This document shows positions 17,965 through 34,824 of a stretch of DNA of 34,824 nucleotides, piece after piece (positions within the stretch are counted from its first letter, which is position 1; each line of letters starts with the position of its first letter). Below the pieces are notes generated by a model, which was not told where the DNA came from, searched no databases, and worked only from the letters and a program-made list of their open reading frames with translations. Both the position numbers and the translations under genes were made by a program. This DNA comes from Betaproteobacteria bacterium (GTDB taxonomy: Bacteria > Pseudomonadota > Gammaproteobacteria > Burkholderiales > SG8-39), in NCBI GenBank assembly GCA_031409355.1, contig JANNXB010000427.1, forward strand, positions 1 to 34,824, read 5' to 3'.

Positions 17965-18602
17965 CTGCCAATATGGGTTTGCTGCTGACGCTGACCGAGC
18001 CGCCGCCGGCCATGACTGAGGAATTCAACGCATGGTACGACACCGAGCACATGGGCGAGCGCCTTTCGATCCCGGGTTTCCTCTCGGCGCGCCGCTGGGA
18101 GCGTGAGTGCAAGCCCGGCGAAGGCCGCTACCTCGCCACTTACGAGCTGACCTCGCCCGGCGTGCTCGAAACTCCCGAATACCTCGCCCACGTCGGTGAC
18201 AACCAGACCCCCTGGAGCAAGCGGTGCCTCGGCAAGACCACGGTATTCCGTCGCTGGGCCTGCGAACAGATCGTTCCCGGCAACCGCTCGCCCGACGAGA
18301 AAGCCAGGGCCCTTTTCCTCGCCTGCGGGGACGTTCCCGCCGCCCACGAGGAGGAGTTCAACCGCTGGTACGACATCGAGCACCTGCCGCTGCTCTTGCA
18401 GGTCCCGGGCGTGCTCGGTGCACGGCGCTTCCGCGCATCGAGCGGCTCGCCCCGCTACATCGCGCTGTACGACCTCGCCGACGAGGGCGTCCCGCAGCAT
18501 CCGGCATGGCAGTCCGCCGTGCGCACCGAATGGACGCAGCGCATCGACGAGCTCACTGCGGATTGCGAATGGATTGTTTCGGTGTGGCGTGAATATCGCT
18601 GA
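17961..18602 (+). CDS. unknown protein made of two tandem ~100-aa repeats (EthD/DUF4286-like dimeric alpha/beta-barrel guess)
   Basis: ATGA overlap with the hyuA stop. The two halves align to each other: LTEPPPAMTEEFNAWYDTEHMGERLSIPGFLSARRW..GRYLATYEL versus CGDVPAAHEEEFNRWYDIEHLPLLLQVPGVLGARRF..PRYIALYDL. Confidence 0.6.
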   Translation: MTANMGLLLTLTEPPPAMTEEFNAWYDTEHMGERLSIPGFLSARRWERECKPGEGRYLATYELTSPGVLETPEYLAHVGDNQTPWSKRCLGKTTVFRRWACEQIVPGNRSPDEKARALFLACGDVPAAHEEEFNRWYDIEHLPLLLQVPGVLGARRFRASSGSPRYIALYDLADEGVPQHPAWQSAVRTEWTQRIDELTADCEWIVSVWREYR

Positions 18603-19782
18603 GCGCCCCGCCCGCAGGCCTCGCCGCCGCCTGGAGCACGCGGTTGCGGCCGGCGTGCTTGGCCGCGTACAGGGCGGCATCGGCAGCGGCGATCAGCGTA
18701 TCCGCAGCCATGCCATGGAGCGCAAATGCCGCCACACCGCCGGAAATGGTGATCGACAGTCGCCGCCCGTTCCACTCGACGCCGTTCATCTGCACTTCGA
18801 CGCGGATGCGCTCGCATACGCGCATCGCCATGCCGGCATCCGTATCCGGCATCAGCAGTACGAACTCCTCGCCGCCGTAACGCCCGAGGATGTCCGGCTG
18901 GCGGACGGTGGCCTGCATGCAGGCGGCGATCCCGCGCAGCACTTCGTCCCCGGCCTGGTGGCCGTGCGCGTCGTTCAAATCCTTGAAATGGTCGAGATCG
19001 AACATCGCGACGCTCAGCACCGTGCCTCCCCGCCGCACCCTGGCGAGTTCCCGGTCCAGCTCCAGCATGAACGAGCGGCGGTTGAACATTCCGGTCAGCG
19101 AGTCACGCGCCGCCTGCCTCGCGAGTTCGAGATTCAGGGCCTGGATCTGCATCCAGAACATGCCGAAACTGGCCGCCGTCGCGAGCAGCAGTATCGCGAG
19201 GAAATAGCTGCTTTGCCCCGCACTCGGTGCCATTACGTCGGTGACTCGCACCTGCAGACTGAACACCAGCCTGGCCACCATCAGTGCGGCCACAATCCAG
19301 AACAGGCCGTGCATGAAACGCTGCGACGTGCGCACCTCCGGCGGCATCTCGCCGCGCAGCTCCAGCGCATTGCGTGCGAAGAAGAAAGCGCTGACGGCGG
19401 AGATCATCACGAGCCGCGCCTGCAGGCTGGGCGTGATGTCGGAAAAAACGTAGACCAGGATTACCGTGGCAGTCAGCACAGCCGCACCGAGCGGATCGTG
19501 CACCGAGCGGCCCTTGAAGATGCGGATCGCCCGGTAAAAAAGCAGGTTCGACCCGACCGCGATGGCGTTGGCCACGGTGATCGACAACAGGTCCGGCACC
19601 GTCCCGCGCAACGCGATCCCGCCGAGCCCGGCCGCCATCATGAGCAGGCCGATGCCCCAAGTGCCCACAGCGCGCGTCCCGGGCTGGCGAAAGCTGAAAT
19701 AGATCGCCAGCACACCGAGGAGCGTTACGTGCACGAGCAGGGTGATGACGAGGGTGCGGGTATCCATGACAGGGCGGATCAT
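18553..19782 (-). CDS. membrane-anchored diguanylate cyclase (multi-TM N-terminal domain plus GGDEF domain with I-site)
   Basis: DSLTGMFNRR, FDLDHFKDLNDAHGHQAGD and GGEEF active site. RQPD lies exactly 5 residues upstream of GGEEF (RxxD inhibitory site). There are about six hydrophobic helices N-terminally. The start was chosen at ATG 19782 (GGGGAA upstream); 19767 and 19860 are alternatives. The 3' end overlaps the convergent upstream gene by 50 nt. Confidence 0.8.
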   Translation of the reverse strand: MIRPVMDTRTLVITLLVHVTLLGVLAIYFSFRQPGTRAVGTWGIGLLMMAAGLGGIALRGTVPDLLSITVANAIAVGSNLLFYRAIRIFKGRSVHDPLGAAVLTATVILVYVFSDITPSLQARLVMISAVSAFFFARNALELRGEMPPEVRTSQRFMHGLFWIVAALMVARLVFSLQVRVTDVMAPSAGQSSYFLAILLLATAASFGMFWMQIQALNLELARQAARDSLTGMFNRRSFMLELDRELARVRRGGTVLSVAMFDLDHFKDLNDAHGHQAGDEVLRGIAACMQATVRQPDILGRYGGEEFVLLMPDTDAGMAMRVCERIRVEVQMNGVEWNGRRLSITISGGVAAFALHGMAADTLIAAADAALYAAKHAGRNRVLQAAARPAGGALSDIHATPKQSIRNPQ

Positions 19783-19844
19783 GACCGGCTTTTCCCCAGG
19801 CCTCAAGCCCGGCTGCGCACCCGGCCTTTGCCACGAGGATAGAC

Positions 19845-21599
19845 ATGCCCGAAACGACAATCGCGCCGCACATAGACCCGATCACGCTGGCCGTGATCCA
19901 GAACGGCCTGCAGCAGGTCTGCAACGAGATGGATCTCGCCTTCTGCCGCGCGGCGTTTTCCCCGGTGATCTCCGAGGCCATGGACCGCTCCGACGGCATC
20001 TACTCCAAGGAGGATGGTTCGCTGATCGCGCAGGGCGAGCTCGGCCTGCCCGTATTCGTCGGCACCATGCAGTTCTCCACCCGGGCCGTGATCGAGCGCG
20101 TGCGCGAGAACAACTGGGCCGTCGACCCGGGCGACGTGTTCATCGTCAACGACCCCTACCTGGGCGGCACGCACCTCATGGACGTGAAGTTCGTGAAACC
20201 GTTCTTCTACCAGGGCAAGGTGTTCGCCTGGCTGGCCAACACCGGCCACTGGCCGGACACGGGGGGCATGGTGCCCGGCGGGTTCTCGGCGCATGCCACG
20301 GAGTCCGAACAGGAAGGCCTGCGCCTGCCCCCGGTCAAGCTCTACAAGAAGGACGTGCTGGACCAGGAGATCCTGTCGATAATACTTTCCAACATTCGGA
20401 TCGCCGACCAGCGGATCGGCGATATCAAGGCGCAGGCGGCGGCGCTGTCCATCGGGGAAAAGCGCCTGGAGGCGCTGCTCGACCGGTACGGCGCCGGCAC
20501 GGTCGAGGCGGCGATCGCCGAGCTGCGGAAGCGCGCCGCGCAGCAGATGCGCGCCAAGATCGCGACAATCCCCGACGGAACCTATGAAGGCCGTGCCGTC
20601 GTCGACTCGGACGGCGTCGTGGACGAGCCGCTCGTCATACGCATGCAGGTGAGGAAGAAAGGCACCGAGCTCGAATTCGACATGACGGGATCTTCGCCGC
20701 CGTGCGCCGGGCCAATGAACTCGGTGATCGCCACCACGCGCTCGTCGATCTACCTCGCCATGAAACACATTTTCCCAGAGGTGCCGATCAACGCCGGCAC
20801 GTTCGAACCGCTGCACATCAGGGATCCCGAAGGCACCTTCCTCTACGCGCACTACCCGCGCCCCGTCTCCGGCTGCGCGGCGGAGGTCAGCCAGCGCATT
20901 GCCGAGGCAGTGTTCTCCGCGCTCACGCATGCCATCCCCGACCGGCTCTTCGCCGCGCCGGCGGGCAGTTCCGGGAACCTGGCGGTCGGCGGCCGCGATC
21001 CGCAGCGCAACCGCAACTACGTGATGTACGTGATCTCCGGCGGCGGCTATGGCGGCAGCCCGCTCGGCGACGGCATCTCCAACGGCTGCTCCACCATCGG
21101 CATTTCAAAGACCCCGCCGCTTGAAGTCATGGAGCAGTACTACCCGATCCTGTTCGAGGAGTACTCGCTGCACGAAGGCTCCGGCGGTGCCGGCGAGCAG
21201 CGCGGCGGGTTCGGCGTGAACTACACGATCCGCCTGCGGCGCGGCGATGCGCGCGCATCGATGGTGATGGACCACGGCCGTGTCGGCCCGCAGGGGGCCC
21301 TGGGCGGCTCCGACGGAGGGGTGAATACCGTGGCGATCGACCAGCGAGGCATCGAGTACCGCCCGCCGCACCTGTCGAAAGACCAGGACATCCAGCTCGA
21401 GCCGGGAGACCGCATTCGCGTCTCCACCCCGGGCGGGGGCGGCTTCGGCGATCCATACAAGCGCGATCCGGCGAAGGTCGCAAAGGACGTGGCGCGCGGT
21501 TATTACACGGCGGAACAGGTCGAGAAGCTCTACGGCGTGAAACTCGCCGCGGGAGGCGAAGTGGATACAGCGGCGACCGCGCGCCTGCGCGCGCCCTGA
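19845..21599 (+). CDS. hyuB: hydantoinase B/oxoprolinase family protein (HyuB-like subunit)
   Basis: DPITLAVIQNGL, AFSPVISEAMD and NDPYLGGTHLMD are classic HyuB/OplB motifs. GAGGA lies 6 nt upstream of the ATG. Confidence 0.85.
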   Translation: MPETTIAPHIDPITLAVIQNGLQQVCNEMDLAFCRAAFSPVISEAMDRSDGIYSKEDGSLIAQGELGLPVFVGTMQFSTRAVIERVRENNWAVDPGDVFIVNDPYLGGTHLMDVKFVKPFFYQGKVFAWLANTGHWPDTGGMVPGGFSAHATESEQEGLRLPPVKLYKKDVLDQEILSIILSNIRIADQRIGDIKAQAAALSIGEKRLEALLDRYGAGTVEAAIAELRKRAAQQMRAKIATIPDGTYEGRAVVDSDGVVDEPLVIRMQVRKKGTELEFDMTGSSPPCAGPMNSVIATTRSSIYLAMKHIFPEVPINAGTFEPLHIRDPEGTFLYAHYPRPVSGCAAEVSQRIAEAVFSALTHAIPDRLFAAPAGSSGNLAVGGRDPQRNRNYVMYVISGGGYGGSPLGDGISNGCSTIGISKTPPLEVMEQYYPILFEEYSLHEGSGGAGEQRGGFGVNYTIRLRRGDARASMVMDHGRVGPQGALGGSDGGVNTVAIDQRGIEYRPPHLSKDQDIQLEPGDRIRVSTPGGGGFGDPYKRDPAKVAKDVARGYYTAEQVEKLYGVKLAAGGEVDTAATARLRAP

Positions 21600-25057: not shown

Positions 25058-25127
25058 ATTGCACCAGGCGGTGCGCACCAGTGTGCCGTGTTTTATCCCG
25101 AAGTCTTGCGCAAAGAACCTCACCGCC

Positions 25128-26392
<1,265 letters not shown>

Positions 26393-26396
<4 letters not shown>

Positions 26397-28656: not shown

Positions 28657-29826
28657 TTGTCTGCATACGATGGCCCCATCCGCGCGCCCCTGCCTTCCGG
28701 CATCCGTTCCCGCCGAGTCGCGGGTGTCAACGGCCTCGACATGCACGTGCTGGAGGCGGGCGACCCCTCCGGCGCACGGCCCTTGGTCCTGCTGCTGCAC
28801 GGCTTTCCGGAACTCGCCTACAGCTGGAGAAAGGTGATGCCGCCGCTTGCCGAGGCCGGGTACCACGTGATCGCCCCCGACCAAAGGGGCTATGGCCGGA
28901 CCACCGGCTGGGACGACCGCTACGACGGAGATCTCGGCTCCTTCTGCATGCTCAACCTGGTGAGGGACGCCCTGGGCCTGGTTTCGGCGCTCGGCTATCG
29001 CTCGGTGGCCGGCGTGGTGGGGCACGACTTCGGCTCGCCGGTCGCGGCCTGGTGCGCGCTTGTCCGCCCGGATGTGTTCCGCTCCGTTGCGCTGATGAGC
29101 TCCCCGTTCGCCGGCCCGCCGGCCATCCCGTTCAACACGCAGGGCGTCGTGCAGCCCGCCTCCGCCGACCCGATTCACGCTGACCTCAGGGCCCTCGAAC
29201 CGCCACGGAAGCACTACCAGTGGTACTACTCAACGCACGGGGCCGATGCCGAGATGCGCCACTGCCCGCAGGGGCTCCACGCTTTCCTGCGCGCCTATTA
29301 CCACTGCAAGAGCGCGGACTGGAAGCAGAACGCACCGGTCGCACTTGAATCCTGGAGCGCGCGCGAACTCGAAAAACTGCCGCGCTACTACGTGATGGAC
29401 CTCGGCCTGGGGATGGCGCAGACCGTCGCTCCGCTCATGCCCTCAGACGAGGAAATCGCGGCGTGCAAATGGCTGCCCGACGCGGAACTCGCGGTCTACA
29501 GCGCCGAGTACGGCCGCACGGGGTTCCAGGGCGGCCTCCAATGGTACCGGTGCAGGACGAGCGGCCTGTTCAATGCCGGGATGGAGGTATTCGCCGGACG
29601 CACGATCGATGTGCCGTCGTGCTTCATCGCCGGGCGCAGCGACTGGGGCACCTACCAGAAGCCGGGGGATTTCGAGAGCATGCAGGCTGCGGCGTGCACT
29701 CGCATGACGGGCATCCACCTAGTCGAAGGCGCCGGGCACTGGGTGCAGCAGGAACAACCCGGGGAAGTCACCCGCCTGCTGGCGGGATTCCTGTCGGCGG
29801 AGCGGGGTACCTCCTCAGCCCGCTGA
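28657..29826 (+). CDS. alpha/beta hydrolase, epoxide-hydrolase-like
   Basis: LLLHGFPELAYSWRKVMP (HGxP oxyanion motif), nucleophile elbow GHDFGSPVA, C-terminal GAGHWVQQEQP. The TTG start at 28657 has GAGG 7 nt upstream. Later ATGs would remove conserved sequence. Confidence 0.75.
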   Translation: MSAYDGPIRAPLPSGIRSRRVAGVNGLDMHVLEAGDPSGARPLVLLLHGFPELAYSWRKVMPPLAEAGYHVIAPDQRGYGRTTGWDDRYDGDLGSFCMLNLVRDALGLVSALGYRSVAGVVGHDFGSPVAAWCALVRPDVFRSVALMSSPFAGPPAIPFNTQGVVQPASADPIHADLRALEPPRKHYQWYYSTHGADAEMRHCPQGLHAFLRAYYHCKSADWKQNAPVALESWSARELEKLPRYYVMDLGLGMAQTVAPLMPSDEEIAACKWLPDAELAVYSAEYGRTGFQGGLQWYRCRTSGLFNAGMEVFAGRTIDVPSCFIAGRSDWGTYQKPGDFESMQAAACTRMTGIHLVEGAGHWVQQEQPGEVTRLLAGFLSAERGTSSAR

Positions 29827-30993
29827 GGCCGCCCGGGAACGCGCCCCGGCCTGCCGGGGCGGGGCGTCGTCCACCACAAGCCCGGCCTCCGGGAGGATGA
29901 CCTCGCGCAGCACGCGCGTCATGAAATAGGGCTTGCCCGGGCCGGCGGCCTCGACCTCGACGTGCTCGAACTTGAACGCCCGCTCGAGCGTGCGCATCAC
30001 GCGGTCGATCGGCTTGCCCGCCTGGGTGGCGCTGGTGAAATACACGCCGCGCAGCATCAGCGGCTGGTAGTCCACGTGGGTGGAAAACCCGAGGCCGATC
30101 ATTTCCCCCACCAGCGGCCCGATTGCGTGGAACTGCTGCGGAAACCGGTAGATCGATGCGCGCCGCACGGGATCCGGCTCCTGCTCGAGGCGGCCCAGCA
30201 TTTCCGCGTAAAGCCTCTGCTGGAGCACCGCAAAGTCGGCGGCGTAGTTCCTCGAGGTTTCCATCGGGTCGACCCCGAAGTCGAAGGTCGTCCCCCAGAC
30301 CTGCTCGCGGGCCGTGTCGTCCATGGTGCCGAAGAACTCGGCAAATCCGGCGAGCAGGTCCATCTTGGTGACGAGGAGGTAGACGGGGAAACGCGTGCCC
30401 AGGCCGGCATACAGTTCGGCAAGGCGCATGCGCACATGCGCCGCGAACTGCTGCCGCTCCGGCTTGGTCCAGAGCAGGAGGTCGGTGACGCTCACCGTGA
30501 TTATCGCGCCGCTTACAGGACGTCCCGGACGGAATCGCCGGACCAGGCCGAGGAAACCGTGCCAGGCGGCGCTGCCCGTCAGCACGTCCCTGTGGTTCTT
30601 GGTTTCGTGGGCCACATAGCGGCCGGCGATGTCGAGGAATACCGCGGCGCCGGTAAACCACCACTCGCAGTAGCGCGACCCGCCAACCCCGGTCACCTGC
30701 GGCGGCCCGTCGCCGGCGTCGCGGGCGAGGCCCAGCCCGGAGTTCTTAAGCACGGTCGAGTTGCCGGAGCCGGGCGCGCCGATGACCACATACCAGGGCA
30801 GTTCATGCACGGATTTGCCCGCGCCCTCGAGGGCCGCGACGGTGGATTCGAACCGCTCGCGCAACGCCGCGATGTTCGCGGCCGCCGGGTCGTCGGGCGC
30901 GACCTGGGGGCCGAGATCGACCATCTGCCGGAACAGTTCCGCGCCGTCGCTGCGCCTGCGCGCCGGGTCAACCTTATCCTGGGGCGTGCTCAT
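29815..30993 (-). CDS. TssM/IcmF-like protein consisting only of the cytoplasmic P-loop NTPase plus ImcF-related N-terminal region. It has no transmembrane helices and no periplasmic domain, and its Walker A is GAPGSGNST
   Basis: ELPWYVVIGAPGSGNSTVLKNSGL, WWFTGAAVFLDIAGRY, RPVSGAIITVSVTDLL, FPVYLLVTKMDLLAGFAEFF, EQVWGTTF, IYRFPQQF and LRGVYFTSATQAGKPID are the diagnostic TssM cytoplasmic-domain motifs. ATG 30993 overlaps the tssL-like stop (ATGA). The ORF stops 18 codons after the ...VILPEAGLVV motif, the point where I recall TM3 following in full-length TssM. The 5' part of the 675-aa ORF is shadow over the upstream gene. Confidence 0.8.
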   Translation of the reverse strand: MSTPQDKVDPARRRSDGAELFRQMVDLGPQVAPDDPAAANIAALRERFESTVAALEGAGKSVHELPWYVVIGAPGSGNSTVLKNSGLGLARDAGDGPPQVTGVGGSRYCEWWFTGAAVFLDIAGRYVAHETKNHRDVLTGSAAWHGFLGLVRRFRPGRPVSGAIITVSVTDLLLWTKPERQQFAAHVRMRLAELYAGLGTRFPVYLLVTKMDLLAGFAEFFGTMDDTAREQVWGTTFDFGVDPMETSRNYAADFAVLQQRLYAEMLGRLEQEPDPVRRASIYRFPQQFHAIGPLVGEMIGLGFSTHVDYQPLMLRGVYFTSATQAGKPIDRVMRTLERAFKFEHVEVEAAGPGKPYFMTRVLREVILPEAGLVVDDAPPRQAGARSRAASAG

Positions 30994-32555
30994 GGTTTCG
31001 ATCCGAGGATGATCACCACGCGCCGGTTCCGGGCGCGATTCTGTTCCGTGTCGTTGGGCGCGACGGGGTCGGCTTCCGCCGCGCCTTCGCTCGCAACCCG
31101 CTGCGGCTGGCTCAGTCTTGCCGCGAGCACCTTTGCGGCCGACTGCGCCCGAGCCGCGCTGAGTTCGAGGTTGGAGGCGAACACCGCGGAATTGACCGGC
31201 AGGCTGTCGGAGTAGCCCCTCACCAGGATCGTGCCGGGAACGCGTTCGAGCGCTTCGCCGACTTTCCCGAGGACCGGATCCATCTGCGCGCCATGCTCGA
31301 CGCGGCCCGAGCCGAACTGCTGCGCGTCGCGAAAGGCGACGATGCTGCGGCCGGCGTCCTCGCCCAACACGATGAGTCCGCCCCGGATTTCGGCAGCAAG
31401 CGCTGCTTCGAGCAGCTTGTGCGGCGTAGCGGCCGGCGCCGCCGGGACGACCGGCGGGGCGACCTCCGCCTTGGGAGCGGCAACCGCGAGCGGCGCCGCT
31501 GCGGGCGCTTCCGCTTTTGGCGCGATGACTGCGCTTGCCGCGGCCGCAGGCGGCGGCGGCGGCTGCATGGTCCGGTATCCGACCACTGCCGCCAGCAGTA
31601 CCGCAACTGCACCGCCGCCGGCGAGCCACGGGAACCCCCCGCGCGATGCCGCCCGTGCGGCGGGTTTCGAGACGGCGGCGATTGCTTGCTGTTTCATCCC
31701 TCGCCAGCGTGCCGAAAGTCCATCTGCCGGACGGGGCCTGCGGCGTGTCACCAGTGCGTGCAGGTCGGCGCGAATCTGGTCGAGCTGCTGCTGCCCTCCC
31801 TCCGTGCCCCGATAGCGCCCTTCGAACCCGAGCGCAAGGCACACATACATCAATTCGAGCAGGTCGGCGTTGTCCTCGGGCTTCTCGGACATGGCCGCCA
31901 ACAGCGTGAAAAACTCGTCGCTCCCGGTATTCTCGCCGCGAAGGTTCTCGAGCAACCCATGCTTCTGCCAGTCACGCCCCCACTCCGTGGATGAAGCGGC
32001 GTCGTCGGCCAGGCAACACAACGCGTAGACCGAGGCCTCGAGGATTTCACCCGGCGTCTGCGCTTTGCTGGCCCCCGCCTCGAAAGCCTCGATCAAATCC
32101 TGGAGCGTTTCCTTGAGCAGCGCCGGGTCGGGATGGTTTTTCGCCGCCCGGATCTGGGGCACTGCACTTAGGACGGGATTCGCGAACGCAATGAGCGTAT
32201 TGAGACCGCCCAGCGCGGCCAGGTTGGCCTGCAGCGCTTCGGGCAGCGCCCGGGGCGCAAACGGATTGGCGCGCCGCCGTGCGCCGCGGCCGGCGATTGT
32301 GGCGTCGGGGTCGAAGTCCGTGAGCGGTCCCGAGAACGTCGCGTCCGGGTCCTCGCCTCTGCGCGGCGCCGGCTTTAGGGTGTCCTCGGGATCCTGGTCA
32401 CCCATGCGCATCAACGCGGCCATGGGCCCGCTGAGCGTCGCATCGGGATCCATCGCCGCCAGCGGACCCGTGACGGTCGCGTCCGGGTCCGTTTCGGGCA
32501 CGGCGCTGCGACCCGGCGCTTGCGGGTCAATGGGCTTGTCGCGGTTGTCACTCAT
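30990..32555 (-). CDS. TssL/DotU-family protein, long form with C-terminal OmpA/MotB-like peptidoglycan-binding domain and an N-terminal extension carrying five DP[DE]xT repeats
   Basis: DotU core: ASVYALCCLADDAASSTEWGRDW..LL......GSDEFFTLL......DLLELMYVCLALGFEGRYR. A single TM follows (FPWLAGGGAVAVLLAAVVGY), then a Pro/Ala-rich linker with an APKAE repeat. The OmpA-like module has VRGYSDSLP, SNLELSAARA and NRARNRRVVIIL. Confidence 0.8.
   Translation of the reverse strand: MSDNRDKPIDPQAPGRSAVPETDPDATVTGPLAAMDPDATLSGPMAALMRMGDQDPEDTLKPAPRRGEDPDATFSGPLTDFDPDATIAGRGARRRANPFAPRALPEALQANLAALGGLNTLIAFANPVLSAVPQIRAAKNHPDPALLKETLQDLIEAFEAGASKAQTPGEILEASVYALCCLADDAASSTEWGRDWQKHGLLENLRGENTGSDEFFTLLAAMSEKPEDNADLLELMYVCLALGFEGRYRGTEGGQQQLDQIRADLHALVTRRRPRPADGLSARWRGMKQQAIAAVSKPAARAASRGGFPWLAGGGAVAVLLAAVVGYRTMQPPPPPAAAASAVIAPKAEAPAAAPLAVAAPKAEVAPPVVPAAPAATPHKLLEAALAAEIRGGLIVLGEDAGRSIVAFRDAQQFGSGRVEHGAQMDPVLGKVGEALERVPGTILVRGYSDSLPVNSAVFASNLELSAARAQSAAKVLAARLSQPQRVASEGAAEADPVAPNDTEQNRARNRRVVIILGSKP
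32283..32489 (-). repeat. five spaced copies of an acidic Thr-containing peptide motif (DPDATV, DPDATL, DPEDTL, DPDATF, DPDATI) encoded in the 5' part of the tssL-like gene
   Basis: Read directly from translation: residues 23-27, 36-40, 55-59, 69-73 and 82-86. Three copies are followed by xGP[LM] (TGPL, SGPM, SGPL). The DNA shows the recurring unit GTCGCGTCCGGGTC/GTCGCATCGGGATC on the plus strand. Confidence 0.85.
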
Positions 32556-32632: not shown

Positions 32633-33226
32633 TCAAGACTCTGCGGCCGGCCGGGTCCAGGTTTCCGACCACGCCAGGACACAGCTCGAGGCCGGCTTTC
32701 CAAAGCGGTCCTGCATGAACACCTTCGCGGTCGCGGCCTCGCCGTTGACGGCGAGCTGGGCGCCGCGCGCCGGCACGAACGTGCTGTATACCCCGATCGG
32801 GCGATCCATCGCGCCCGGCGGGACGGTCAGCACGAACGGCGCCATCAGGTCCCACCAGCTCATGATGATCTCGCCGTCGTCCGACGCGATGCGTTCCTCG
32901 ACGGTGCTCAGGCAGTCCCCCGCGCGGTCGAATTCGGCGTCCATCACTGGCAGGGATTCATCGCCGAACGGCTTGTGGAGCAGCGCTTCGATCGTCCGCT
33001 GCAGGAAGCGCGTCATGCCGATGTTGTCCGAATAGACCCGCGGCCCCTTGCCAGTAAGCGCGCTCTCGATGAACAGCGCGTGACCCTGCCCCGCCGGGGA
33101 CCAGAGCACGCGCCAGTGGCTCACCCGGTCGGAAATCGTCTTGCCGCCGTCATCCGACAGCCGGATGAACGAGTTCTCGCCCGTCATGACAACGTTGCCG
33201 GGATCTACCATTCGCTGCTCAGCCAT
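32633..33226 (-). CDS. hypothetical protein (197 aa), no recognisable family
   Basis: ATG 33226 is preceded by GGGAGGG. GC3 is high in this frame. There is no hydrophobic helix or signal peptide. The upstream part of the 378-aa ORF is Arg/Cys/Trp-rich shadow sequence. Confidence 0.6.
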   Translation of the reverse strand: MAEQRMVDPGNVVMTGENSFIRLSDDGGKTISDRVSHWRVLWSPAGQGHALFIESALTGKGPRVYSDNIGMTRFLQRTIEALLHKPFGDESLPVMDAEFDRAGDCLSTVEERIASDDGEIIMSWWDLMAPFVLTVPPGAMDRPIGVYSTFVPARGAQLAVNGEAATAKVFMQDRFGKPASSCVLAWSETWTRPAAES

Positions 33227-34047: not shown

Positions 34048-34824
34048 TTACGACGCTGGCCGCAGGACGATCACGACCCGGCGGTTCTTGGCGCGGTTCC
34101 CGGCCGTGTCGCTGGGCGCCACCTGCTGCGAATCGCCGGCCCCTTCGCCTTTGACGCGCTTGGGATCGCGCAGCTTGCCCGCGATCAGCTTCGCCACGGA
34201 TTCGCCGCGTGCCGCGGACAGCTCCTGGTTCGAGGGGAACTTCGGGTTGCTGCTCGGTTTCGCGTCGGCGTGCCCGGTGACGACTATCGATCCCGGCGCC
34301 TTGTCCAGCGCGGCGGCGATTCCGAGGATGGCCGGACGCAGCGGCGCCTCGATGTCCACGCCGCCCGAATGGAACTGGTTGGCGCTGCGCAGCGTGATGG
34401 TGGTCGCCCCGCGTTCTTCGGCAACCGCAATCACTCCGCGCTTGATGTCGTCCGCCAGCAGGGCCTTAACGCTCACTGCGCTGGCGGACGCCGCGGGCGC
34501 CGCGGGAGGCGTCACAGCGGGCGCCACAGCAGGCGCCGGCGCGACCGCCACGGCCGGCTTGGGTGCCTCAGGTGCGGGAGGTTTCCCGCCGCCAAACACG
34601 ATATACAGCGCCACCGCGAGCACAACCGCCCCGCCCGCGATCATTGGCATGCGCGAGGTGTCGGCGGATACGGGCGTCGCAAGCACGGCCGCAGCGACAG
34701 CGGGCGCGACAGCAGCGACCACCGTCGGCGGAGCGGCCGTTGGCGGCACCGCAGCCGGTTCAGGTACGGGTTCCGCCGGCTGGGCGCCGATTACCGTCGC
34801 GTCGGGATCATCGTCCCGCTGGAA
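34048..34824 (-). CDS. DPDAT-motif / single-TM / OmpA-MotB-like peptidoglycan-binding protein, paralogous to the C-terminal half of the tssL-like gene (5' end outside the window)
   Basis: The frame stays open to the window edge (FQRDDDPDATVIGAQP...). TM MPMIAGGAVVLAVALYIVFGG, then a Pro/Ala linker. The OmpA-like module (VTGHADAKP, SNQELSAARG, NRAKNRRVVIVL) aligns along its length with residues about 390-520 of the 30990..32555 product. Confidence 0.75.
   Translation of the reverse strand, partial: FQRDDDPDATVIGAQPAEPVPEPAAVPPTAAPPTVVAAVAPAVAAAVLATPVSADTSRMPMIAGGAVVLAVALYIVFGGGKPPAPEAPKPAVAVAPAPAVAPAVTPPAAPAASASAVSVKALLADDIKRGVIAVAEERGATTITLRSANQFHSGGVDIEAPLRPAILGIAAALDKAPGSIVVTGHADAKPSSNPKFPSNQELSAARGESVAKLIAGKLRDPKRVKGEGAGDSQQVAPSDTAGNRAKNRRVVIVLRPAS

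What the first reader, a model, noticed from the sequence alone, without database searches (positions are those of the whole stretch)
32283..32489. Five DP[DE]xT repeats in the cytoplasmic N-terminal extension of the TssL-like protein: candidate multi-site phospho-threonine acceptor
- The first about 90 residues ahead of the DotU core hold five spaced copies: DPDATV, DPDATL, DPEDTL, DPDATF and DPDATI.
- A sixth copy (DDDPDATV) occurs in the neighbouring paralogue at 34795-34809.
- Each copy presents one Thr in an acidic, Pro-flanked, probably disordered context.
- As I recall, in Agrobacterium tumefaciens an N-terminal Thr of TssL is phosphorylated by the kinase PpkA, and the phospho-TssL recruits an FHA protein to activate the system.
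- A repeated acceptor-like motif could be a graded or multivalent version of that switch.
- No FHA-domain gene or PP2C phosphatase is visible in the window, so this stays a hypothesis.
Basis: inference. Interest (0 to 1): 0.7.

Follow-up and report, generated by a model that had tools for sequence, protein, structure and literature searches.

The report
Conserved threonine-motif array on orphan TssL-like protein
A membrane protein derived from a bacterial secretion machine, but no longer encoded with that machine, carries five copies of a short threonine motif in a floppy tail; relatives encode a threonine kinase and phospho-threonine readers right beside the same gene, so the array is probably a multi-site phosphorylation dock, though nothing has been tested.

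Summary
Residues 23-87 of the 521-aa DotU+OmpA protein (30990-32555, minus strand) hold five DP[DE]xT[VLFI] copies. None of 200,000 shuffles gave two or more.

The array is a family trait. The 120 best homologues (40-59% identical) carry 2-8 copies, usually 13 residues apart. The fifth position is Thr in 636 of 657 cases and never Ser. AlphaFold2 predicts this tail as disordered.

There is no type VI secretion system here. The gene forms a two-gene module with a soluble TssM-type NTPase domain whose Walker-A lysine is lost.

A sister clade supports the phospho-threonine idea. There, the same repeat-bearing gene lies between a Hanks kinase and TagF plus Fha, near an FHA-cyclase, again without secretion-system core genes. 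True T6SS TssL proteins carry one ancestral copy.

Support is weaker for the window's own clade:
- It has no kinase or FHA gene in the locus.
- None of its 11 genomes showed a class-B-type Fha.
- The hydrophobic +3 residue typical of the kinase-linked clade is gone.
- The nearby kinase is not syntenic in relatives.

Verdict: a new variant of the TssL phospho-threonine switch, biochemically untested.

The parts
30990..32555 (-). TssL-like gene (521 aa): disordered N-terminal tail, DotU domain, one TM helix, Ala/Pro linker, OmpA-type peptidoglycan-binding domain
   Evidence: ORF and translation. Pfam DotU E 3.6e-51 and OmpA E 5.7e-10. TIGR03349 scores 153.9 against a cut-off of 89.95. AF2 model.
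32241..32555 (-). Cytoplasmic N-terminal extension (residues 1-105), predicted disordered; carries the motif array
   Evidence: AF2 with a 91-sequence alignment: pLDDT 45-60 over residues 1-~105, with no docking on the DotU domain. No Pfam model matches it.
32472..32489 (-). Motif copy 1, DPDATV (residues 23-28)
32433..32450 (-). Motif copy 2, DPDATL (residues 36-41)
32376..32393 (-). Motif copy 3, DPEDTL (residues 55-60)
32334..32351 (-). Motif copy 4, DPDATF (residues 69-74)
32295..32312 (-). Motif copy 5, DPDATI (residues 82-87), followed by the RRRANPF junction to the DotU domain
31569..32195 (-). DotU (TssL cytoplasmic) domain, residues 121-329 by Pfam; the model's TM helix is residues 311-330
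   Evidence: AF2 pLDDT >95 for residues 120-270 and helix 311-330
31005..31424 (-). Periplasmic OmpA/MotB-type peptidoglycan-binding domain (residues 378-517)
   Evidence: Pfam OmpA 428-511. TIGR03350 scores 129.8, just under its 139.8 cut-off. AF2 pLDDT >90.
29815..30993 (-). Partner gene: soluble 392-aa TssM-type NTPase domain (IcmF-related_N only). Its ATG overlaps the TssL-like stop codon (ATGA).
   Evidence: Pfam PF14331 E 4.6e-73. TIGR03348 matches model positions 71-431 of 1168. Overlap shown. The pair is conserved in every class-A locus with sequence downstream.
30754..30780 (-). Degenerate Walker A of the partner: GAPGSGNST (Lys replaced by Asn)
   Evidence: all A2, B and C partners read GAPG[SA]GKTT. 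The window subclade reads GSGN[ST], GSGSS or GSGES.
34048..34824 (-). OmpA-only paralogue (N-terminus cut by the window end): motif tail, TM, TssL-type OmpA domain, no DotU domain. One visible copy, DPDATV, at 34792-34809.
   Evidence: Full-length relatives (318-387 aa) carry 3-7 copies of D[DEP]DATV[MTS][MIL].

Best explanation
The five DP[DE]xT copies are short linear motifs in a disordered cytoplasmic tail of an inner-membrane, peptidoglycan-anchored TssL-like protein. They are amplified copies of the single N-terminal Thr peptide found in secretion-system TssL proteins.

The most likely mechanism has two steps. A Hanks-type Ser/Thr kinase phosphorylates the motif Thr. The resulting phospho-threonines act as a multivalent dock for FHA-domain proteins.

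The module is not part of a type VI secretion system. It is a stand-alone derivative of the T6SS membrane complex: TssL-like plus a TssM NTPase domain. In the window's lineage the writer and readers are not encoded in the locus, so they would have to act in trans.

Shown here: the motif, its family-wide conservation, the predicted disorder, the gene contexts, and the loss of the Walker-A lysine.
Inferred: phosphorylation, FHA binding, and the downstream output.
For: 1. Conservation. The 120 best homologues are all DotU-domain proteins (PF09850; nearly all also OmpA) and 119 of 120 carry 2-8 copies; one 325-aa fragment has none. The commonest spacing is 13 residues.
2. Thr specificity. After DP[DE]x the residue is Thr in 636/657 cases and never Ser. 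FHA domains are known to be strictly specific for phospho-Thr (general knowledge; also stated in PMC3953482).
3. Gene context in the sister clade (class B, about 28 loci). The motif-bearing gene is flanked by a ~900-aa Hanks kinase, a short TssM, TagF and an Fha with a T6SS_FHA_C domain. Most loci also have an FHA-guanylate-cyclase gene upstream.
4. Class-B motifs read D[PDA][DE]ATV[MAV][MIL]P, with a hydrophobic +3 residue in 91% of copies. By general knowledge, +3 is the main selectivity position of FHA domains.
5. Ancestry. True T6SS clusters (VgrG, TssK, TssM, TagF, Fha, PP2C) encode TssL with one copy, DDPF..[DE]RT[VI][IF]xPxPGGR, at the same place. A. tumefaciens Thr14 (DLPpTVVEI) lies in the equivalent N-terminal tail.
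6. Genome co-occurrence. 11 of 20 genomes that hold the kinase-less pair (class A2) also hold a class-B module or its Fha elsewhere.
7. Multivalency makes sense. The single A. tumefaciens site binds Fha with only millimolar Kd. Fha and PpkA form condensates that recruit TssL (PMC13389060; PMC12607579).
8. The tail is predicted disordered and does not dock on the DotU domain.
Against: - The window's own subclade (A1: 11 genomes plus the window) has no kinase, Fha, TagF or PP2C in the locus. None of those genomes appeared among the 80 best hits of the Fha-profile scan.
- In A1 the +3 position is Gly 53%, Pro 17% or Ser 13% instead of hydrophobic.
- The A1 partner NTPase has lost its Walker-A lysine, so the module may be degenerate or repurposed.
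- Similarity to the proven A. tumefaciens site is limited to an upstream Asp, the Thr and hydrophobic residues after it.
- No phosphorylation data exist for any member.
Confidence: 0.45

Rival explanations
1. Phosphorylation-independent motif array. The DP[DE]AT[VI]xxP core is a docking peptide for the co-encoded TssM-type NTPase domain, or for the DotU domain of a neighbouring subunit. It would tether or cluster several partner molecules at the membrane.
For: The IcmF_N partner is the only gene that accompanies the motif-bearing gene in all classes, and it is translationally coupled to it. The motif core, including Pro at +4, is conserved whether or not kinase and FHA genes are present. The A1 clade keeps 3-7 copies with no class-B kinase or Fha detected.
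Against: - AF2 of the full protein shows no docking of the tail on the DotU domain.
- True T6SS TssL proteins make do with one copy although they also pair with TssM.
- A pure binding peptide would be expected to tolerate Ser or Val now and then, yet Ser is never seen.
- The DotU-less paralogue carries the array too.
Confidence: 0.2
2. The neighbouring cNMP-binding Ser/Thr kinase (25059-26396) is the dedicated writer of the array.
For: It is a complete Hanks kinase (Pkinase E 1.1e-49) only 4.6 kb away. Class-B loci link the system to nucleotide cyclases (FHA-guanylate cyclase), and this kinase has a cNMP-binding domain.
Against: It is on the opposite strand and four unrelated genes away (VTT/DedA, SDR, an unknown gene, an alpha/beta hydrolase). 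In syntenic relatives that keep SDR and VTT, the position is taken by other genes: a SAM-cyclase-AAA_16 gene, SBP_bac_3, or CofD plus pilins. None is a kinase. Its similarity to the class-B kinases is confined to the kinase domain.
Confidence: 0.1
3. Relic. The array was inherited from a kinase-linked ancestor and no longer has a specific reader in this lineage; it persists as a flexible acidic spacer.
For: The A1 clade has lost the Walker-A lysine of the partner. No class-B kinase or Fha was detected for it. The +3 position has drifted.
Against: Asp, Pro and Thr remain 100% conserved over the 60 A1 copies, although the proteins are only 50-60% identical overall. Copies differ at synonymous sites. 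Copy number stays at 3-7. A spacer would not preserve a six-residue pattern.
Confidence: 0.08

Closest known systems
A. tumefaciens TssL Thr14 - PpkA - Fha switch (T6SS threonine phosphorylation pathway; PMC3953482)
   Same: A long-form TssL (DotU + TM + OmpA-type domain) with a Thr in the cytoplasmic tail just ahead of the DotU domain. An Asp lies upstream and hydrophobic residues follow (DLPTVVEI versus DPDATV). In class-B relatives the gene is flanked by a Hanks kinase, TagF and Fha.
   Different: One site there, 2-8 here. The sequences are only loosely alike. No T6SS structural genes are present. In the window's clade there is no kinase, Fha or TagF in the locus. Phosphorylation is proven there and untested here.
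N-terminal peptide of TssL in true T6SS clusters (DDPF..[DE]RT[VI][IF]xPxPGGR)
   Same: Same position relative to the DotU domain. The last repeat of classes A2 and B still reads ..ATV[RA][IV]P[ST]PGR[RK]R.
   Different: Single copy (occasionally two) versus an array. In the window the last copy has lost the PxPG part (DPDATIAGRGARRR). I know of no established function for the canonical peptide outside Agrobacterium.
TssM / IcmF (T6SS inner-membrane NTPase)
   Same: The partner matches the cytoplasmic NTPase region (PF14331; TIGR03348 model positions 71-431) and is translationally coupled to the TssL-like gene.
   Different: The partner's only Pfam hit is the cytoplasmic IcmF_N domain: no TM region and no periplasmic domain (392 aa versus about 1150). 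Walker-A Lys is replaced by Asn. The score is below the equivalog cut-off (378 versus 388).
M. tuberculosis Rv1747 (ABC transporter whose disordered linker holds several pThr sites read by FHA domains and drives clustering); recalled from memory, not checked here
   Same: A membrane protein with several Thr acceptor sites in a disordered cytoplasmic segment. Multivalent pThr-FHA contacts give clustering.
   Different: Unrelated protein family. The FHA domains are in the same polypeptide. There it is experimentally shown; here it is an analogy only.

Membership tests
DotU/TssL family (PF09850, TIGR03349) | DotU cytoplasmic domain | tested here: met
   PF09850 E 3.6e-51, residues 121-329. TIGR03349 scores 153.9 against a cut-off of 89.95. 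AF2 pLDDT >95.
DotU/TssL family (PF09850, TIGR03349) | Single C-terminal TM anchor after the domain, with the N-terminus in the cytoplasm | tested here: met
   AF2 helix 311-330 (hydrophobic stretch GGGAVAVLLAAVVGY), preceded by Arg-rich segments. Topology is inferred from TssL and was not measured.
Long-form TssL (TIGR03350 type_VI_ompA) | TssL-type OmpA peptidoglycan-binding extension | tested here: inconclusive
   TIGR03350 scores 129.8, below its 139.8 cut-off. Pfam OmpA scores 39.9, above its 27.2 cut-off.
Type VI secretion system (as a component) | Encoded with T6SS core genes (TssA-C, E-G, J, K, Hcp, VgrG, ClpV, full-length TssM) | tested here: not met
   None in the 34.8-kb window. None within 10 kb in relatives L001-L005 and L167. 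True T6SS loci for comparison: L158, L160, L163.
T6SS threonine phosphorylation pathway substrate (Agrobacterium-type TssL) | Thr in the cytoplasmic N-terminal tail ahead of the DotU domain | tested here: met
   Five motif Thr residues at positions 27, 40, 59, 73 and 86.
T6SS threonine phosphorylation pathway substrate (Agrobacterium-type TssL) | PpkA-type kinase and Fha (plus TagF/PppA) encoded in the same cluster | tested here: not met
   Absent from the window locus and from all A1 and A2 loci. Present in class B relatives.
T6SS threonine phosphorylation pathway substrate (Agrobacterium-type TssL) | Thr is phosphorylated and the phosphopeptide binds the FHA domain | not testable with these tools
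   Needs mass spectrometry or Phos-tag and peptide-binding assays.
TssM/IcmF (partner gene) | Walker A GxxGxGK[ST] | tested here: not met
   GAPGSGNST at 30754-30780. The lysine is present in all A2, B and C partners.
TssM/IcmF (partner gene) | Three TM helices and a periplasmic IcmF-related/IcmF_C domain | tested here: not met
   392 aa with only PF14331. TIGR03348 scores 378, below its 388 cut-off, and covers model positions 71-431 of 1168.
Any curated repeat or domain family covering the motif | Match of the tail to a Pfam model | tested here: not met
   No meaningful Pfam hit at E up to 10 for three tails. phmmer of residues 1-96 against 1.84 billion representatives gave 8 hits; the two outside the family are spurious. 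No paper contains the motif strings.
Known anti-phage defence systems (PADLOC) | Match to a defence-system protein model beyond generic domains | tested here: not met
   Only generic hits: the OmpA domain to ZorB (MotB-like), the kinase to PD-T4-6, the cyclase to PycC.

The most novel reading that the evidence does not exclude
TssL-like/TssM-like pairs, and the fuller kinase - TssL - short TssM - TagF - Fha - FHA-cyclase modules of uncultured Burkholderiales, are a secretion-independent signalling hub that evolved from the T6SS membrane complex. The hub is anchored to peptidoglycan. An array of phospho-threonines on the TssL tail recruits FHA proteins multivalently, including a nucleotide cyclase, possibly as a membrane-bound condensate. 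The window shows its most reduced form, with a pseudo-NTPase partner.
Probability: 0.3. Interest if true: 0.8.

Novelty: new variant of a known kind. Interest (0 to 1): 0.6.

Why it matters
Phospho-regulation of TssL is known from a single site in one genus. There, Fha binds the site with only millimolar affinity.

A conserved array of 2-8 such sites would give a natural test of whether multivalent pThr-FHA contacts drive assembly or clustering. That question is now active for Fha and PpkA condensates.

The comparative picture also shows that the T6SS "regulatory" set (TssL, TssM, TagF, Fha, PpkA) exists as self-contained modules without any secretion apparatus in many uncultured Burkholderiales. 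This suggests the set has a function of its own. Genome annotation pipelines currently label these genes as T6SS or T4SS components, which is misleading.

Tried and rejected
1. AF2 of a TssL-cytoplasmic-part + linker + IcmF_N chimera with a paired alignment, to test motif-partner docking.
2. Word-indexed protein search with the paralogue's tail. It gave only 72 candidates and 3 weak hits, so it was uninformative.
3. phmmer of residues 1-96 against the representative library. It gave only 8 hits. The two non-family hits, an RTX/cadherin-like adhesin and a eukaryotic ABC protein with DVDSDNTILG repeats, are unrelated. Sensitivity for such a biased tail is low, so absence elsewhere is not proven.
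4. The conserved 195-aa protein upstream (32633-33220) as a possible reader. It occurs in more than 3000 clusters and in unrelated contexts without the module. AF2 failed (mean pLDDT 36). I rejected it as a module component.
5. Single-sequence Fha scan of genomes. It found only 2 loci and was replaced by a profile scan.
6. HAD-phosphatase DxDxT motif and Ca-binding readings. I rejected both by reasoning: Glu replaces the second Asp in about 45% of copies, and the segment is disordered.
7. Defence-system membership: only generic domain hits.
8. Literature searches for the motif strings and for T6SS-less TssL/TssM/TagF/Fha modules found nothing relevant.
Full report
**1. What is at the coordinates**

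The minus-strand ORF 30990..32555 encodes a 521-aa protein. Its parts are:
- a DotU domain, residues 121-329 (PF09850, E 3.6e-51);
- a C-terminal OmpA domain (PF00691).

TIGR03349 (DotU/TssL) is passed, with 153.9 against a cut-off of 89.95. The TssL "long form" OmpA model falls just short, with 129.8 against 139.8.

Residues 23-87 contain DPDATV, DPDATL, DPEDTL, DPDATF and DPDATI, at window 32472-32489, 32433-32450, 32376-32393, 32334-32351 and 32295-32312. The composition of the tail predicts 0.003 copies. In 200,000 shuffles none gave two or more copies. The copies differ at synonymous codon positions, so the pattern is maintained at the protein level.

The sixth copy, in the truncated paralogue, is real: DPDATV at 34792-34809.

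**2. The array is a family trait**

A search of the 5.8-billion-protein collection gave 462 homologues at E<=1e-10. The best 120 are 40-59% identical and all DotU-domain proteins (nearly all also OmpA).
- 119 of them carry 2-8 copies. The one exception is a 325-aa fragment.
- The commonest copy numbers are 4-5. The commonest spacing is 13 residues.
- The consensus is [FL]-D-P-[DE]-A-T-[VILF]-x-x-P.

A count that does not presuppose Thr was also made. After DP[DE]x the residue is Thr in 636 of 657 cases (Asn 10, Leu 5, Asp 4) and never Ser.

No Pfam model covers the tail. An exhaustive phmmer scan of 1.84 billion representatives found no unrelated protein with the array. No paper in the library contains the motif strings.

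AlphaFold2 with a 91-sequence alignment gave these results:
- pLDDT 45-60 for residues 1-~105;
- pLDDT >95 for the DotU domain;
- a TM helix at residues 311-330;
- pLDDT >90 for the OmpA domain;
- the tail does not dock on the DotU domain.

**3. It is not a type VI secretion system**

The gene's stop codon overlaps (ATGA) the start of a 392-aa gene, 29815-30993. That gene consists only of the cytoplasmic NTPase region of TssM (PF14331; TIGR03348 model positions 71-431 of 1168).

The rest of the window is metabolic or regulatory: TctC, a molybdo-dehydrogenase, a Liv-type ABC system, hydantoinase A/B, GGDEF, an SDR, DedA and others. It holds no T6SS core gene, FHA, TagF or PP2C.

The kinase at 25059-26396 (Pkinase plus cNMP-binding domain) is on the other strand, four unrelated genes away.

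**4. Relatives fall into four classes**

A genome scan returned 80 loci, nearly all from metagenome-assembled genomes of uncultured Burkholderiales or Betaproteobacteria. I classified them by phmmer with locus-derived seeds and with a neighbour-joining tree.

- **Class A1** (the window plus about 10 loci). Gene order: OmpA-only paralogue, RsuA-like pseudouridine synthase, conserved 195-aa protein, TssL-like gene with 3-7 copies, soluble IcmF_N.
- **Class A2** (about 21 loci). Only the pair is present, in various housekeeping neighbourhoods. Copy number is 4-7.
- **Class B** (about 28 loci). Gene order: Hanks kinase (~900 aa), TssL-like, short TssM (~640 aa, with N-terminal hydrophobic segments), TagF, Fha (FHA + T6SS_FHA_C). 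An FHA-guanylate-cyclase gene usually lies upstream. No T6SS core genes occur within 10 kb. One B subclade has a single motif (DDADATVVLPTPGRKR). The other has 5-7.
- **Class C** (about 21 loci). Gene order: Fha, a ~480-aa kinase, TssL, full-length TssM, TagF. There are 1-2 copies, for example DDRTLI..EPTILMPAPGG. In L076 the flanking genes encode caspase-domain proteins and an ECF sigma factor, not T6SS genes.

Class A is monophyletic and sister to B plus C.

True T6SS clusters were checked for comparison. They carry VgrG, TssK and full-length TssM; TagF and Fha were seen in all three, PP2C in one. They encode TssL with a single DDPF..[DE]RT[VI][IF]xPxPGGR peptide at the same position. The array is therefore an amplification of the canonical TssL N-terminal peptide.

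**5. Evidence bearing on phosphorylation**

The precedent is accurate. A. tumefaciens TssL is phosphorylated at Thr14 (STDNPSSWQDLPpTVVEITEESR) in a PpkA-dependent way. Fha binds only the phosphopeptide, with a Kd of 0.5-2 mM (PMC3953482). Fha and PpkA form condensates that recruit TssL (PMC13389060; PMC12607579).

In favour for this family:
- Thr is strictly conserved, with no Ser.
- Acidic residues lie upstream of the Thr.
- The tail is predicted disordered.
- Class B encodes the full writer and reader set in the operon.
- The class-B motif is D[PDA][DE]ATV[MAV][MIL]P. Its +3 residue is hydrophobic in 91% of copies. FHA domains are known to select at +3 (general knowledge).
- 11 of 20 genomes with an A2 pair also hold a class-B module or its Fha elsewhere, so action in trans is plausible there.
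- Eight of the ten Fha proteins aligned (all eight class-B ones) carry a [VIL]F[ED]E[PAS]T[FYL][VIM]G motif in the linker, with a similar make-up of acidic residues, Thr and a hydrophobic residue. This is suggestive only.

Against, for the window's own clade A1:
- There is no kinase, Fha or TagF in any A1 locus.
- None of 11 A1 genomes appears among the 80 best Fha-profile hits.
- The +3 residue is Gly 53%, Pro 17% or Ser 13%.
- The partner's Walker-A lysine is replaced: GAPGSGN[ST] in most A1 partners, and Ser (L014, L021) or Glu (L016) in related loci outside strict A1. All other classes read GAPG[SA]GKTT.
- In syntenic relatives that keep the SDR and DedA genes, other genes occupy the place of the window kinase.

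One A1-specific point cuts the other way. The A1 OmpA-only paralogue keeps 3-7 copies of the class-B flavour, D[DEP]DATV[MTS][MIL]. Some reader of that flavour is therefore probably still present in these genomes.

**6. Interpretation**

The best-supported reading (confidence about 0.45 for the window protein, higher for the family) is as follows. The motif Thr residues are acceptor sites for a Hanks kinase. Once phosphorylated, the array is a multivalent dock for FHA proteins. The whole sits on a peptidoglycan-anchored scaffold that derives from the T6SS membrane complex but works without a secretion apparatus.

The main rival (about 0.2) is a phosphorylation-independent docking array for the co-encoded IcmF_N domain.

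Three other readings are less likely:
- the window kinase as the dedicated writer (about 0.1);
- a relic spacer (about 0.08);
- chance.

**7. Novelty**

The single-site TssL pThr switch is known. I found no description of a conserved multi-copy array, or of T6SS-less TssL/TssM(/TagF/Fha/kinase) modules. I file this as a new variant of a known kind. No step of the mechanism has been tested experimentally.

Noticed in passing
window 30754-30780 (-): The TssM-type partner has GAPGSGNST instead of GAPGSGKTT. The Walker-A lysine is lost throughout the window's subclade (Asn, or Ser/Glu in L014, L021, L016) but kept in all other classes. This suggests a pseudo-NTPase.
   Followed up: partly
L004 4373-15365; also L019, L027, L037, L042, L050, L057 and others: A self-contained module without any T6SS core gene nearby: FHA-guanylate cyclase, Sel1 protein, ~900-aa Hanks kinase, TssL-like, short TssM (~640 aa), TagF, Fha. 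It recurs in about 28 species-level genomes. No PP2C was seen in these loci.
   Followed up: partly
L076 1943-16846 (class C; Piscinibacter/Rhizobacter-like genomes): A set of Fha, kinase, TssL, full-length TssM and TagF is flanked by two caspase-domain (Peptidase_C14) proteins, an ECF sigma factor, an OmpA protein and a Tll0287/HAMP protein. The usual T6SS sheath and baseplate genes are absent.
   Followed up: partly
window 32633-33220 (-): A 195-aa protein with no Pfam or NCBIfam match is 76-95% identical across more than 3000 database clusters. It is far more conserved than its neighbours and occurs in unrelated contexts elsewhere. AF2 with a 41-sequence but low-diversity alignment failed (mean pLDDT 36).
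   Followed up: partly
window 25059-26396 (+): A soluble Hanks kinase fused to a cyclic-nucleotide-binding domain. In relative L001 the corresponding position holds a SAM-SAM-guanylate cyclase-AAA_16 gene. Class-B loci carry an FHA-cyclase. This recurring cNMP theme may be coincidence.
   Followed up: no
alignment A4 (class-B Fha proteins from L004, L019, L028, L042, L050, L054, L026, L052): Each class-B Fha linker carries 1-3 copies of [VIL]F[ED]E[PAS]T[FYL][VIM]G. This Thr motif has the same acidic-Thr-hydrophobic make-up as the TssL array and may be a second acceptor for the same kinase.
   Followed up: no
window 30990-30993: The TssL-like stop codon and the partner's start codon overlap as ATGA. 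The same one-base-offset coupling is seen in most class A and B loci.
   Followed up: yes
window 18553-19860 (-): A GGDEF diguanylate cyclase gene lies between, and opposite in orientation to, the hydantoinase A and B genes. The maximal ORFs overlap.
   Followed up: no
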